Source: Candidatus Zixiibacteriota bacterium
GTDB lineage: Bacteria > Zixibacteria > MSB-5A5 > GN15 > FEB-12
DNA length: 64,000 nucleotides
NCBI GenBank assembly: GCA_029860345.1
Contig: JAOUBJ010000004.1
Location: 202,943 to 266,942, forward strand
Direction of reading: 5' to 3'
This document shows, piece by piece, positions 10,156-12,791 of this stretch. Position 1 is the first letter of the stretch, and the number at the start of each line of letters is the position of its first letter. Both the position numbers and the translations under genes were made by a program. The notes under the pieces are model-generated. The model saw only the letters and a list, made by a program, of their open reading frames with translations, did no database searches and had not been told where the DNA came from.

Positions 10156-12791
10156 TTCGCCTCATGCCTTTCAAGAAGTGCTATGAATCGGGGTGATTCC
10201 TGCAAAGGGGCAAACAGCGGATCGGCTCTCAGGTACTGTGGTGTGCTCCAACCTGGTATTGACAGGTGGTATTCTAGTTCATCGATGGCCAAATCATACT
10301 GTCCGATTATTGCATATATCTGGGCCATGACCATGACCGGATCAGGTCCTCACCAATGGCAGTTGTCGACAGGCATCAACTCTTTTGCGGTCTTTCCTGC
10401 GGCTACGGCCGAATCAGGCATCCCCATAAAAGCGTAGGTGAGTCCTAACCTGGAATAGATTGGCCAATCATTGGGATGCAGGCTGAAGTCGAAATCCTCA
10501 AGCAGTCGAATCCGGCATGAATCATAGTAGATGAAGGCGGAGTCTTCTCGATCAGTCAGGTCAAAAATCTGGGCGATATTCATGTAGACAAGATAGTCCA
10601 CACGTTCATCTTTTAAGTCCCGCAGGTCGGCGATCATCTCATCCGGATCGGTTCTCTCGATCACGAATCTCCATACTCCGAGAGAAGTAGAGGGAAACAT
10701 CTCATACAGCGACGATTGTGCCGCACCGAGAGCGCTCACGATACTCTCATAGGAGTGGGTAGGGGAATCAACAGTTCCATGCTCCAGCAGGTTCAACAAC
10801 AGACTGTAGTATACCATGTCCCCGTCGGTGGGAGCCAGGACGACCCCGCGATCAACGAACTCCCGGCCCTTTTTGAAGTCACGCAGATAAGAATGAGCGG
10901 TTCCAAGCCAGTAATAATGACGCACCGTGAGTGGATCGATTCTGGCTGCTTGTTCGAAGTTTGATAGCGCCTCGTGCCACTTACCCTGGCGCATCTTCAC
11001 TACGCCGATTTGCTGCAGGAGATCAGCGTTAGGTGCTACTTCTGAAGAGGCCAGCGCGAACGCATCCAGCGCCCGCTCATAATCGCGCTCAAGGAAATTG
11101 TAGTGCGACCCAAGAGCGATGTGTGCTTCCGGTAGACTGGGATCCAACTCCAACGCCTTTTCTGCCGCTTGTAAGCCTGTTGAATCTCGCCTTGCCCCAC
11201 CCCCCTTGCGACCGAATACTAACTGAGTATAAGCCGTTGATTTCTTAGCCCAGGCAAGGGCAAAGCGTGGATCGAGAGCGAGAGAAGAATCAAACATTTC
11301 GATCGCCTCACCCAATTTGGCGACGCGTGCGCTCCTGCCCATAGCGTCCAAACCACGAAGGTAGTAATTGTATGCGGCCATGCTCGTTGTCGGCGCGTAA
11401 TCAGGAGTCTGTCGGTTTGGCTCCAGAAGTGTCAAACCCAAGGCTGTAACAATCTTGGATGCGATTTCCGTTTGCACTTCAAATATCTGAACCATCTGTT
11501 GATCGAAGTTATCGGACCACATCATATAGCTGTTACTGGTCCTGGTCAGCTTGGGAGTAATTCGAAAGCGATCGACGTCGCCTGATCTGTCCCAACGAAT
11601 AGTGGCCTCGAGAATATAGTCCGCTCCCGTCTCCTTACCAATCTGCTCTATACTCCTATCTACGTCTCGGTACTTCTCGGCGCTGTTGTTTGACAGCAAG
11701 CGTAGTTCCTTGATAGTAGAAAGGCGCGAACTGATCTCCTCACGGATGCCGCTGGAAAAATACTCATCATCGGCAGCACCAAGATTTACGAAGGGTAACA
11801 CAATGAGAACCGGCGGCTGAGCCTGAGCCGACTCCTCCCCAGCGGTGAAGAGTGTGGAAATCAAGTATCCCCCAGCGACGCAAACCACTGCAGCCGATGC
11901 CAACCATACGAAACGGTTTTTCCTGGGCGGCGCTGTTTCGACGGTCAGTCGTCTCAGGTCGGCCAGCATTCCGTCGGCATGCTGGTATCTGAGGGCAGGG
12001 TCCTTGGCCAGTGCCTTGTTGATTACCTGTTGCAGCTCCCCCGTCACGCCCGATTTGAATCGAGCAATTGGTTCCGGTGTCGACGTGGTAATCGCTCTTA
12101 TTATCGCAGCATCATTGTCCCCTTCGAAAGGACGACGACCGGTTAACATCTCATATAGGATCACGCCGACTGAGAACAGGTCTGACCTCTTATCGACTTT
12201 TCCGCCGGTAATCTGCTCCGGCGCCATATACCCGACCGTGCCCAGAGTCGACCCGGTCTGGGTCAGCTTCTCTTCGCCCGAAACTGTGGCCAGCCCAAAG
12301 TCCAATAGGCGGGGTTTGCCTTTACTGTCTATGATAATATTGCCCGGCTTGATATCCCGGTGAACCACCCCTGCTTCGTGAGCTTCGTGCAGTCCTTCGC
12401 ATATCTGCTGGGTCAGACTCACAGCCTCGGCAACCGAGAGTTTGCCTTGTTTGACCACATCCCTCAACGGTTCTCCCGTAATATGGGCCATGGCAAAAAA
12501 CGGTCGCCCGTTATACTCACCTACTTCATACACCGGGACGATATTCGGATGATCGAGTTTGGCGGCCGCCTTGGCTTCGCGAGTAAACCGAGTACGACTG
12601 TCTTCGTCCCGGCACAAATGCGTCGGCAGAAATTTCAGGGCGACATTTCGAGACAGCTTGGTGTCCTCAGCCAGGTAGACTTCACCCATACCACCGGCGC
12701 CGATCTTCTCGACAATCCGGTAGTGCGAAACCATCGTGCCTTTGGTCAGCACGACGTGCGTGCGTGTTTTGTCGTCGTCGTTAGGTTCCAT
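10152..12791 (-). CDS. Ser/Thr protein kinase-TM-TPR protein with in-frame TGA at 10350..10352 (candidate Sec/readthrough); conventional call would be 10350..12791
   Basis: The ORF 10350..12953 ends ...MPVDNCHW-TGA. The 60-aa ORF 10152..10334 is in the same frame (12953 and 10334 are both 2 mod 3). The likely true start is ATG at 12789..12791 (MEPNDDDKTRTHVVLTKGTMVSHYRIVEKIGAGGMGEVY), because the upstream 54 codons overlap the cupin gene. The stop of the extended frame overlaps the next kinase start as ATGA (10152..10155). Confidence 0.6.

What the first reader, a model, noticed from the sequence alone, without database searches (positions are those of the whole stretch)
10323..10361. Second copy of the C-H-W-UGA-G-P plus hairpin arrangement (paralog 2), with ATGA coupling of the extended frame to the next gene
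Seen directly:
- TGA lies at 10350..10352 after ...MPVDNCHW.
- The following frame is the same one (GPDPVMVMAQIYAIIGQYDLAIDELEYHLSIPGW...PLQESPRFIALLERHEAK).
- The RNA is UGA + GGACCUGAUCC (11 nt) + GGUCAU-GGUC-AUGGCC, identical in stem, loop and spacing to paralog 1, although the flanking codons have diverged.
- The extension is homologous to that of paralog 1 (VMVMA..G..D.A...LE..LSIP......DP...P....PR).
- The extended frame ends in TGA at 10152..10154, overlapping the next kinase ATG (10153..10155) as ATGA. Every other junction in this operon is 11 nt or less; without readthrough, these two genes alone would be followed by untranslated gaps of about 195 and 215 nt.

Two independent paralogs keeping the stop, the frame and the hairpin argue against a pseudogene or a sequencing error.
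Basis: partly seen in the sequence, partly recalled or inferred. Interest (0 to 1): 0.85.

Follow-up and report, generated by a model that had tools for sequence, protein, structure and literature searches.

The report
Selenocysteine codon in sensor kinase gene
An in-frame UGA inside a membrane sensor-kinase gene, followed by a small conserved RNA hairpin, is most likely read as selenocysteine; this would define a previously unlisted bacterial selenoprotein family that public gene calls cut in two.

Summary
On the minus strand, a transmembrane Ser/Thr kinase gene reads ...C-H-W-UGA-G-P. The UGA (10350-10352) is followed by an 11-nt spacer and the hairpin GGUCAU-GGUC-AUGGCC. The same frame then runs 65 more codons to a TGA that overlaps the next kinase's ATG.

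I found the same arrangement in 45 distinct genes from Zixibacteria, Ignavibacteria, Marinimicrobia and Calditrichaeota.
- The codon is always UGA and a Cys always sits three residues upstream.
- The extension is coding in that frame. It completes the last TPR repeat and a C-terminal domain that non-UGA homologs carry without a break.
- Exactly one residue is missing at the UGA in alignments with those homologs.
- Synonymous sites are frozen only inside the hairpin.
- The closing base pair covaries (G-C, G-U, A-U, U-A) with no mismatch.
- UGA also ends 20 of 44 extensions, so the genetic code is not reassigned.
- Loop sequence and spacer length equal those of the E. coli fdhF SECIS.

The best reading is SelB/SECIS-directed selenocysteine in a CxxU motif of the extracytoplasmic sensor domain (confidence 0.8).

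Weak points: no Cys-form homolog was found, no Sec machinery could be inspected, and the hairpin is thermodynamically modest. It is a new member of a known kind.

The parts
10152..12791 (-). Full recoded gene of paralog 2: cytoplasmic Ser/Thr kinase, one transmembrane helix, an outside TolB-like plus TPR sensor domain, Sec at residue 814, 879 aa in all. The start is taken as ATG 12791; alternative GTG starts upstream were called by some pipelines.
   Evidence: Translation. Pfam Pkinase and TPR hits. Single hydrophobic segment at about residues 294-315. Start by analogy with paralogs beginning M(T/E)EPNDD(D)KTRTH.
10353..10361 (-). Codons Cys-His-Trp just before the UGA. Together with the UGA they form a CxxU motif.
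   Evidence: Cys is invariant in 44 of 44 genes, His in 40 and Trp in 42. Cys and His codons vary freely at the third base. Non-UGA homologs have Asp-Ala-x at these positions.
10350..10352 (-). In-frame UGA, proposed selenocysteine codon.
   Evidence: TGA in 45 of 45 family genes. Exactly one alignment column is left for it between the two halves when aligned with uninterrupted homologs.
10339..10349 (-). 11-nt spacer GGACCUGAUCC (codons Gly, Pro, Asp and the first two bases of Pro).
   Evidence: The length is invariant in all genes. Gly-Pro is invariant as amino acids, with the Pro third base free and the Gly codon GGA in 40 of 45.
10323..10338 (-). SECIS-like hairpin: 5' arm GGUCAU (10338-10333), loop GGUC (10332-10329), 3' arm AUGGCC (10328-10323). 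It encodes (P)VMVMA.
   Evidence: 100% of cells are paired in 43 sequences. The closing pair is GC 38, AU 3, GU 1, UA 1. RNAalifold returns the same helix on its own. Third-position entropy is 0.15 against 1.6-1.7 in the flanks.
10155..10349 (-). 65-codon extension: last TPR repeat plus the C-terminal 'TPR end-of-group' domain.
   Evidence: NCBIfam NF047558 TPR_END_plus scores above its cut-off on this stretch. It is colinear with the C-termini of non-UGA homologs. Codon periodicity of variation is 1.07/0.66/1.72.
10152..10155 (-). ATGA overlap: stop TGA (10152-10154) of the extended frame and start ATG (10155-10153) of the next kinase gene.
   Evidence: A similar TGATG overlap occurs in ortholog L001.
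7465..10155 (-). Paralog 1: same architecture. TGA at 7669-7671, hairpin at 7642-7657, 67-codon extension ending in TAA at 7465-7467, 11 nt before the GTG (7453) of the third kinase.

Best explanation
The UGA at 10350-10352 is a selenocysteine codon. The hairpin 11 nt downstream (6 bp, loop GGUC) would act as a bacterial SECIS. It would bind the Sec-specific elongation factor SelB carrying Sec-tRNA(Sec), which delivers it to the ribosome paused at UGA. One Sec is then inserted and translation continues for 65 codons.

The product is an 879-aa single-pass membrane Ser/Thr kinase. Its extracytoplasmic TPR sensor domain carries a Cys-x-x-Sec motif in the loop before the last TPR repeat.

Shown here:
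- UGA, frame, Cys and hairpin are conserved.
- The extension is coding.
- There is an RNA-level constraint on the hairpin, with covariation.
- UGA is an ordinary stop elsewhere in these organisms.

Inferred:
- SelB/tRNA(Sec) is the decoder.
- The CxxU forms a selenenylsulfide or binds a metal, and so makes the sensor respond to redox state or a thiophilic ligand.
- Completion of the protein, and perhaps translation of the overlapping next kinase gene, depends on selenium supply.
For: 1. Conservation.
- Nine or ten genes reached through protein searches alone, without any DNA pattern, all have TGA followed by an in-frame extension of 60-70 codons.
- A genome-wide pattern that allowed TGA, TGC or TGT returned 38 real genes, all TGA.
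- In total there are 45 distinct genes in 24 clusters at 55% identity.

2. The extension is translated in frame.
- Entropy by codon position is 1.07/0.66/1.72 downstream, against 1.12/0.88/1.57 upstream.
- It hits NF047558 TPR_END_plus.
- Uninterrupted homologs align across the junction, leaving exactly one column for the UGA.

3. RNA constraint.
- The Val codons in the hairpin are GTC in 43 of 43 and 41 of 42 genes, against 32% GTC in the rest of the same genes. The flanking Cys, His and Pro codons are free.
- The closing pair, made of two third-codon positions, is GC 38, AU 3, GU 1, UA 1 with no mismatch. This requires at least three independent double changes, one with its G-U intermediate in the same clade.
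- U.G becomes C-G in two genes.
- One gene with VQVLA instead of VMVMA can still form a hairpin.

4. Fit to the bacterial SECIS model (PMC13188914, section 5).
- 4-nt loop beginning GG, 6-bp stem, 17 nt from UGA to the loop.
- Same loop (GGUC) and same 11-nt spacer as E. coli fdhF, whose sequence was verified.
- The core is more stable than the fdhF minimal hairpin: -5.2 against -4.2 kcal/mol.

5. An invariant Cys three residues upstream gives CxxU, a classic selenoprotein motif. No non-UGA homolog has Cys there.

6. UGA ends 20 of 44 extensions, so recoding is site-specific.

7. Topology. With one transmembrane helix, the sensor domain lies outside the cell. The extension must therefore be made as one chain with the rest to be exported.

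8. Sec decoding in the lineage. A Zixibacteria contig carrying one of these kinases (L048) also carries a separate gene with ...LLSPT-UGA-PGC.... That gene has a hairpin of similar geometry and Cys-form homologs (SPTCPGC), the standard Sec/Cys signature.
Against: - No homolog with Cys in place of the UGA was found. This held in the top 150 of an exhaustive HMMER search, in the TGH pattern scan and in a profile search seeded with CHWCGP words. Nearly all known selenoprotein families have such homologs.
- No selA, selB, selC or selD could be looked for. The window, its 20 kb of flanks and all fetched loci hold no tRNA and no Sec gene.
- The hairpin is not the unconstrained minimum-energy fold of single sequences. 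Competing folds are 1-2 kcal/mol better.
- The 62-nt regions fold no better than shuffles (z from -0.03 to 1.2).
- There is no Rfam match.
- Four of the six pairs never vary, and part of that invariance was imposed by my search pattern.
- The sequence UGAGGA holds a Shine-Dalgarno-like GAGG upstream of two invariant AUGs. A termination-reinitiation reading is therefore not absurd.
Confidence: 0.8

Rival explanations
1. Termination followed by reinitiation. The UGA is a real stop. The GAGG in UGAGGA acts as a ribosome-binding site, and one of the two AUGs in the hairpin restarts translation. This would give a truncated kinase ending in CHW plus a separate 60-aa peptide, which is how public gene callers annotate it. 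The hairpin would hide the AUGs so that only terminating ribosomes restart.
For: - Gene callers predict 60-64 aa ORFs starting at the first hairpin AUG in every locus.
- This genome uses Shine-Dalgarno motifs.
- GAGG and both AUGs are almost invariant.
- No Cys-form homolog exists.
Against: - The sensor domain lies outside the membrane and the small peptide has no signal sequence, so it could not join it.
- Gly-Pro between the UGA and the AUG is invariant as amino acids, with a free Pro third base. It aligns with the Gly-Pro of uninterrupted homologs, which indicates these codons are translated.
- The GAGG-to-AUG spacing of 12-13 nt is long.
- Conservation of the loop GGUC and the invariant Cys at -3 remain unexplained.
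- There is no indel in the spacer in 45 genes.
Confidence: 0.08
2. SelB-independent programmed readthrough. A near-cognate tRNA (Trp, Cys, Arg or Gly) reads the UGA at some frequency, helped by the local context or the hairpin. This would give short and long isoforms without selenium.
For: - The extension is coding in frame and UGA is conserved.
- There is no Cys-form homolog.
- Sec machinery was not verified.
- The base context after the UGA (GGA) is conserved.
Against: - No hairpin-stimulated UGA readthrough of this kind is established in bacteria (own knowledge).
- The hairpin matches the SelB-binding model in loop sequence and distance (PMC13188914).
- The invariant Cys at -3 fits a Cys-Sec pair.
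- If Trp or Cys were wanted, a sense codon would serve, yet none of 45 genes has one.
- A second, classical Sec/Cys gene lies on a contig of the same lineage.
Confidence: 0.07
3. Ordinary stop or decaying gene. The protein ends at CHW, and the downstream frame is a remnant or a chance ORF. Alternatively, the UGA is a sequencing or assembly error.
For: - Two family members do look damaged: L021 has a 1-nt deletion after the hairpin, and L019 has an in-frame TAG in the extension.
Against: - 45 genes in four phyla keep a 60-70 codon in-frame extension under purifying selection.
- Identical gene structure is seen in three independent assemblies.
- There is a domain hit on the extension.
Confidence: 0.02
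4. Genetic-code reassignment: UGA is a sense codon (Trp or Gly) throughout these organisms.
For: Some uncultured bacterial lineages do reassign UGA (own knowledge).
Against: - UGA terminates 20 of 44 of the same genes about 65 codons later, including this one (10152-10154). It does so at positions that match the ends of homologs.
- Gene calls with the standard code give full-length conserved proteins across the window.
Confidence: 0.01

Closest known systems
E. coli fdhF (formate dehydrogenase H) Sec-UGA with its SECIS hairpin
   Same: - In-frame UGA, then an 11-nt spacer, then a short hairpin whose apical loop is GGUC.
- The distance from the UGA to the loop is 17 nt here and 18 nt in fdhF.
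- The element lies inside the coding sequence.
- The core hairpin has similar low stability.
   Different: - No bulged U in the stem.
- No extended lower stem conserved across the family.
- The protein is unrelated (a TPR sensor of a kinase, not a molybdoenzyme).
- Sec is not at a metal-cofactor active site.
- fdhF has many Cys-form homologs, while this family shows none.
CxxU selenoproteins of bacteria (GrdA, SelW-like, AhpD-like, FCYXU-type TonB-dependent receptor; Table 1 of PMC13188914)
   Same: - Cys three residues before Sec.
- Like GrdA, no Cys form is seen (own knowledge for GrdA).
- Like the TonB receptor family, Sec sits in an envelope protein that is not a classical oxidoreductase.
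   Different: - None of the 119 listed families is a protein kinase, a cyclase or a TPR protein.
- The fold is a TPR solenoid, not thioredoxin-like.
- The motif sits in an inter-repeat loop.
Non-UGA transmembrane Ser/Thr kinases and cyclases with a TolB-like plus TPR sensor domain ending in TPR_END_plus (NF047558)
   Same: - Same domain order and same C-terminal domain.
- Alignable end to end. The family is very large: 128,214 representatives at E <= 0.001.
   Different: - They read ...P-V-S-K-D-A-x-x-G-P... where this subfamily reads ...P-V-x-x-C-H-W-U-G-P...
- They lack the VMVMA-encoding hairpin.

Membership tests
Bacterial selenoprotein gene (SelB/SECIS-dependent UGA decoding) | In-frame UGA conserved among orthologs, with conserved coding sequence continuing in the same frame | tested here: met
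   TGA in 45 of 45 genes. The extension shows codon periodicity and a domain hit.
Bacterial selenoprotein gene (SelB/SECIS-dependent UGA decoding) | Stem-loop just downstream of the UGA: apical loop 3-9 nt, upper stem 4-16 bp, G in the first two loop positions, 16-37 nt from UGA to loop (model in PMC13188914) | tested here: met
   Loop GGUC (4 nt), 6 bp, 17 nt. Conserved in 44 of 45 genes, and the variant still forms a hairpin with loop GUU.
Bacterial selenoprotein gene (SelB/SECIS-dependent UGA decoding) | SECIS free energy of -7.5 kcal/mol or lower (search-program criterion) | tested here: inconclusive
   - The 16-nt core is -5.2 kcal/mol (-6.3 in context).
- With the hairpin enforced in 54 nt, the values are -8.7 (this copy) and -11.0 (paralog 1).
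- The fdhF minimal hairpin is -4.2 by the same method.
- The hairpin is not the unconstrained minimum-energy fold.
Bacterial selenoprotein gene (SelB/SECIS-dependent UGA decoding) | Evidence that the hairpin is selected as RNA (covariation or frozen synonymous sites) | tested here: met
   - Closing pair GC 38, AU 3, GU 1, UA 1 with no mismatch.
- 0 of 500 shuffles reach the observed score.
- Third-position entropy is 0.15 against about 1.65 in the flanks.
- Only one pair shows double changes.
Bacterial selenoprotein gene (SelB/SECIS-dependent UGA decoding) | Homologs with Cys aligned to the UGA (usual signature, not strictly required) | tested here: not met
   None was found. Uninterrupted homologs have a variable residue there, and Asp where this family has Cys.
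Bacterial selenoprotein gene (SelB/SECIS-dependent UGA decoding) | selA, selB, selD and tRNA(Sec) present in the same genome | not testable with these tools
   - Only 84 kb of the source contig and 8-kb pieces of other genomes could be read, and none holds these genes.
- Indirect support: a second gene with a Sec/Cys pair and a SECIS-like hairpin lies on contig L048.
Bacterial selenoprotein gene (SelB/SECIS-dependent UGA decoding) | Selenium actually incorporated at the position | not testable with these tools
   Needs 75Se labelling or mass spectrometry.
Transmembrane Ser/Thr kinase with TPR sensor ending in TPR_END_plus | Pkinase domain, single transmembrane helix, TPR repeats, C-terminal NF047558 domain | tested here: met
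   Pfam Pkinase E=1.4e-52 and TPR families. One hydrophobic segment. NF047558 scores 33.3 and 49.7 bits against a cut-off of 32, but only if the UGA is read through.
UGA-reassigned genetic code (tables 4 or 25) | UGA not used as a terminator | tested here: not met
   20 of 44 extensions end in TGA at the position where homologs end.

The most novel reading that the evidence does not exclude
The Cys-x-x-Sec loop is the sensing element of a family of outward-facing kinase and cyclase receptors. It would act as a selenenylsulfide switch or a thiophilic-ligand site that sets signalling output. In addition, the UGA would act as a selenium gate. When Sec-tRNA is scarce, ribosomes stop at CHW, the sensor lacks its last repeat and cap, and the overlapping (ATGA) next kinase gene in the tandem array is translated less. 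Selenium status would then be wired directly into a phosphorylation cascade. The absence of any Cys form would mean that Cys cannot replace Sec in this role.
Probability: 0.2. Interest if true: 0.8.

Novelty: new member of a known kind. Interest (0 to 1): 0.62.

Why it matters
If confirmed, this adds a selenoprotein family of an unusual type: signalling receptors (Ser/Thr kinases and at least one nucleotide cyclase) with Sec in a TPR loop outside the cell, rather than a thioredoxin-fold oxidoreductase.
- The family is spread over four poorly known phyla (Zixibacteria, Ignavibacteria, Marinimicrobia, Calditrichaeota).
- It appears to lack a Cys form, which is rare and suggests a function that needs selenium chemistry.
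- It exposes a systematic annotation error. Every public gene call seen here splits these genes into a truncated kinase and a spurious 60-aa protein.
- The SECIS is nearly invariant and close to the E. coli fdhF element, so a functional test in E. coli should be practical.

Tried and rejected
- **Word-indexed protein search** with the C-terminal 165 aa (U written as C): only one hit. It was useful as an ortholog but too insensitive for anything else.
The pre-UGA part, and a non-UGA homolog, were used instead.
- **The search for related loci with family alignments:** It was replaced by a DNA pattern.
- **Metagenome scan for hairpin variants** (GTC followed by a non-A base): 10 hits, all chance matches without an ORF.
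- **Rfam,** at gathering and at permissive thresholds: nothing.
- **tRNA scan** of the window and 47 loci: nothing.
- **Walking the source contig** 10 kb beyond each window end: no Sec genes.
- **Literature searches** for Sec use in these phyla or for a kinase/TPR selenoprotein: nothing relevant.
- **Scan for other UGA-plus-hairpin ORFs:** mostly shadow ORFs. One real candidate was found in L048. L041's DUF3179 gene is a Cys form with an ordinary stop.
- **Thermodynamic z-scores** of single sequences: not significant, so stability alone is no evidence.
- **Foldseek against the PDB:** only generic TPR matches.
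Full report
**1. What is in the sequence**

On the minus strand, a gene starts at ATG 12791 (GTG starts further upstream are possible). It encodes a Ser/Thr protein kinase domain, one hydrophobic segment (about residues 294-315) and a long TPR-rich C-terminal region.

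- The frame reads ...ELMPVDN-C-H-W, then TGA at 10350-10352.
- It continues without another stop for 65 codons (GPDPVMVMAQIYAIIGQYDLAIDELEYHLSIPGW...ERHEAK) to TGA 10152-10154.
- This last stop overlaps the ATG (10155-10153) of the next kinase gene as ATGA.
- After the first UGA come 11 nt (GGACCUGAUCC) and then GGUCAU-GGUC-AUGGCC, at 10338-10323.
- The next gene (paralog 1, 10155-7465) has the same C-H-W-UGA-G-P, an 11-nt spacer of different sequence and the identical 16-nt hairpin.
- The 33-nt motif occurs exactly twice in the window, against none in 100 shuffles.
- The two paralogs are only 33% identical in the sensor region, yet this block is identical at the nucleotide level.

One detail is wrong. 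The fourth-to-fifth kinase junction of this six-gene tandem array is a plain 206-nt gap, so not all other junctions are 11 nt or less.

**2. Not an error, not a pseudogene**

- The same 828-aa-plus-62-aa gene structure is present in three assemblies from different samples. The window corresponds to 110135-174134 of a 277-kb contig.
- A profile of the pre-UGA sensor region was run with HMMER against 1.84 billion representatives. It found a huge family: 128,214 proteins at E <= 0.001.
- Among the top 150, 20 representatives of 50%-identity clusters end exactly at C-x-x (CHW, CQW, CFW, CYY, CHL). The others run on for about 65-75 more residues.
- I fetched the DNA for seven of these truncated representatives. 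Every one has TGA, the same frame and a 60-70 codon extension.
- A pattern scan of 185,579 species genomes allowed TGA, TGC or TGT at the position and left the Val codons and third positions free. It gave 41 loci. Three were chance hits without an ORF and 38 were real, all with TGA.
- The carriers are Zixibacteria, Ignavibacteria/Ignavibacteriales, Neomarinimicrobiota, Calditrichaeota and unclassified genomes assembled from metagenomes.
- Altogether there are 45 distinct genes in 24 clusters at 55% identity.
- One member has a guanylate/adenylate cyclase domain instead of the kinase.

**3. The extension is translated in the same frame**

- Variation by codon position downstream of the hairpin (entropy 1.07/0.66/1.72 for positions 1/2/3) matches the pattern upstream of the UGA (1.12/0.88/1.57).
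- The extension scores above the curated cut-off for NCBIfam NF047558, 'TPR end-of-group domain'.
- The two halves were aligned with uninterrupted homologs. The upstream half ends at ...P-V-x-x-C-H-W and the downstream half starts at G-P. Exactly one column is left between them.
- Homologs read P-V-S-K-D-A-x-x-G-P. Cys therefore replaces a conserved Asp, and the UGA replaces a variable residue.
- An AlphaFold model of an uninterrupted homolog (pLDDT 93.7) places these residues in a 10-residue loop between two TPR helices. The helix that follows is the one encoded by the hairpin.
- The fold is generic TPR, not thioredoxin-like.
- UGA is a normal terminator in these organisms. The extensions end in TGA 20 times, TAA 10 times and TAG 14 times. 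A reassigned code is therefore excluded, and recoding must be site-specific.

**4. The hairpin is constrained as RNA**

Codon usage over the 45 genes:

| Position | Codons seen | Background in the same genes |
|---|---|---|
| Cys -3 | TGC 34, TGT 11 | free |
| His -2 | CAT 18, CAC 23 | free |
| Pro +2 | all four codons | free |
| Val +5 | GTC 43 of 43 | GTC 32% |
| Val +7 | GTC 41 of 42 | GTC 32% |
| Ala +9 | GCC 40, GCT 4, GCA 1 | GCC 36% |
| Gly +1 | GGA 40, GGC 5 | GGA 24% |

- Third-position entropy falls to 0.15 inside the hairpin, from about 1.65 on either side.
- The closing pair is formed by two third-codon positions. It is G-C in 38 sequences, A-U in 3, U-A in 1 and G-U in 1, and never a mismatch.
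- All 258 pair cells are standard pairs. No shuffle out of 500 reaches the observed covariation score, and slid registers pair far worse.
- The changes are at least three independent events. One clade holds G-C, G-U and A-U members together, which is the classical path through a wobble intermediate.
- Two genes turn the U.G pair into C-G, at the cost of a Val-to-Ala change.
- RNAalifold, given the alignment without any hint, returns the same helix.
- One gene (L055) has VQVLA instead of VMVMA. AUG-to-CAG and AUG-to-CUG are complementary changes that still allow a hairpin in a register shifted by one, with loop GUU (-6.4 kcal/mol). Another fold of that sequence is more stable.

Caveats:
- Four of the six pairs never vary.
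- For the 38 pattern-derived genes, the two ATGs and GC of the Ala codon were fixed by my pattern. The unbiased sample is the 9-10 genes reached through protein searches.

**5. Comparison with the SECIS model**

The published bacterial model asks for four things (PMC13188914):
- an apical loop of 3-9 nt;
- a stem of 4-16 bp;
- a G in the first two loop positions, usually followed by G or U;
- 16-37 nt between the UGA and the loop.

Here the loop is GGUC, the stem is 6 bp and the distance is 17 nt.

The E. coli fdhF element, whose sequence I verified in 5,419 genomes, is UGA + 11 nt + GGUUGCA-GGUC-UGCACC. It has the same spacer length and the same loop.

The energy criterion of the search program (-7.5 kcal/mol) is not met by the 16-nt core (-5.2). 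However, the fdhF minimal hairpin is weaker still (-4.2). With the hairpin enforced, the local region reaches -8.7 for this copy and -11.0 for paralog 1.

Against this: the hairpin is not the unconstrained minimum-energy fold, and the region folds no better than shuffled sequence. The evidence for the hairpin is comparative, not thermodynamic.

**6. The usual Sec/Cys test fails**

Three searches found no homolog with Cys at the UGA position:
- the top 150 HMMER hits;
- the TGH pattern scan;
- a profile search of 5.8 billion clusters seeded with 30 sequences carrying CHWCGP words, which gave 19 hits, none a Cys form.

This is atypical and is the main internal weakness. It is offset by the invariant Cys three residues upstream, which is absent from every uninterrupted homolog. 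This Cys makes a CxxU motif of the kind seen in many selenoproteins (Table 1 of PMC13188914).

**7. Sec decoding in these organisms**

I could not inspect whole genomes. The window, 20 kb of flanks and all fetched loci contain no tRNA and no sel gene.

Indirect support comes from contig L048 (Zixibacteria), which carries one of these kinases.
- Two kilobases away it has another ORF reading ...VRFIALLSPT-UGA-PGCRRGFSVIQ....
- That ORF has a 7-bp hairpin with loop GUU, 10 nt after the UGA.
- A second metagenomic copy keeps the UGA and the hairpin.
- More distant homologs read SPTCPGC at the same place.

That is the standard signature of a UxxC selenoprotein, and its hairpin geometry matches that of the kinase element.

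**8. Rivals**

- **Termination-reinitiation.** The most serious alternative uses the Shine-Dalgarno-like GAGG in UGAGGA and the invariant AUGs of the hairpin. This genome does use such motifs.
  - It fails on topology: the sensor domain is outside the membrane, and a separately made 60-aa peptide has no export signal.
  - It fails on the invariant, codon-like Gly-Pro between the UGA and the AUG.
  - It does not explain the loop conservation or the Cys at -3.
- **SelB-independent readthrough** cannot be excluded without experiment. It does not explain why no gene simply uses a sense codon.
- **Pseudogene, sequencing error and code reassignment** are contradicted by the data above.

**9. Mechanism proposed**

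- Shown: a site-specific, conserved, in-frame UGA with a selected downstream hairpin and a translated extension.
- Inferred with good support: SelB/SECIS-directed Sec insertion, giving a single-pass kinase with a Cys-x-x-Sec loop in its outward-facing TPR sensor.
- Speculative:
  - the motif works as a selenenylsulfide redox switch or a site for thiophilic ligands;
  - selenium supply gates completion of the sensor;
  - through the ATGA overlap, selenium supply also affects translation of the next kinase in the array.

**10. Novelty**

The 2026 catalogue of 119 prokaryotic selenoprotein families lists no kinase, cyclase or TPR protein. Literature searches found nothing on this family. NCBIfam names only the generic end domain. 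Public gene calls split every member.

It is a new family that uses a known mechanism. It is notable for its signalling context, its near-invariant fdhF-like SECIS across four phyla and its lack of Cys forms.

Noticed in passing
window 1-12953 (minus strand) and L053: Six Ser/Thr kinase genes lie in tandem: 813/834, 828, 986, 615, 1060 and 846 aa. The first two are the UGA type. The array sits next to rpmH, yidC, mnmE and mnmG, about 50 kb from dnaA, dnaN and recF, so it is close to the chromosomal origin region.
   Followed up: partly
L048 about 2024-3329 (+), UGA at 2934-2936; second copy in L066, UGA at 785-787: A separate candidate selenoprotein reads ...LLSPT-UGA-PGCRRG... (UxxC).
- It has the hairpin GACGGGG-GUU-CUCCGUC 10 nt after the UGA.
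- Cys-form homologs P0183 and P0184 read SPTCPGC.
- The N-terminal part hits DUF3887.
- Pfam and NCBIfam do not match the Sec-containing part, so it may be an unlisted family.
   Followed up: partly
L008 195-2489: The same Sec-containing sensor domain is attached to a Guanylate_cyc (nucleotide cyclase) domain instead of a kinase. The motif is C-Y-Y-UGA and the hairpin is identical.
   Followed up: partly
window 10347-10349 and the equivalent codon in all family genes: The codon after the UGA is GGA in 40 of 45 genes and GGC in 5, never GGG or GGT (background GGA 24%). UGAGGA contains a Shine-Dalgarno-like GAGG 12-13 nt before the first AUG of the hairpin. GACC can also pair with the GGUC of the 5' arm in single-sequence folds. 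The reason for this constraint is unexplained.
   Followed up: partly
L055 5431-5480 (P0045, Zixibacteria GCA_030597645.1): This is the only hairpin variant found. The peptide is VQVLA and the RNA is GGUCCAGGUUCUGGCC. The two Met codons changed to the complementary CAG and CUG. A shifted-register hairpin with loop GUU is possible, but a different, more stable fold also exists.
   Followed up: partly
L021 6871-6960 (-); L019 about 610 / L055 about 2896: Two family members look damaged. L021 has a 1-nt deletion right after the hairpin, which shifts the frame. The gene on L019/L055 has an in-frame TAG at extension codon 36. These are either decaying copies or assembly errors.
   Followed up: no
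window 10152-10334 and 7465-7653; 60-64 aa ORFs in L001-L010, L054, L055: Public gene calls annotate the extension as an independent small protein that starts at the first AUG of the hairpin (for example P0163). The kinase is called as ending at CHW. This is a systematic mis-annotation across ENA, JGI, NCBI and Logan records.
   Followed up: yes
window 2430-2636 (minus strand): A 206-nt intergenic gap with stops in all frames separates the fourth and fifth kinase genes.
   Followed up: yes
L041 about 2790-3866 (+): A DUF3179 protein lies next to a UGA-type kinase. DUF3179 is a family with known Sec forms. This copy has the Cys form (C-P-L-T) and an ordinary TGA stop.
   Followed up: partly
several family genes (L011, L024, L033, L036, L039, L045; L008): A seventh base pair can extend the stem: U-A in six genes and C-G in one. 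It is formed by the second base of codon +4 and the first base of codon +10. It is absent in both window copies.
   Followed up: no
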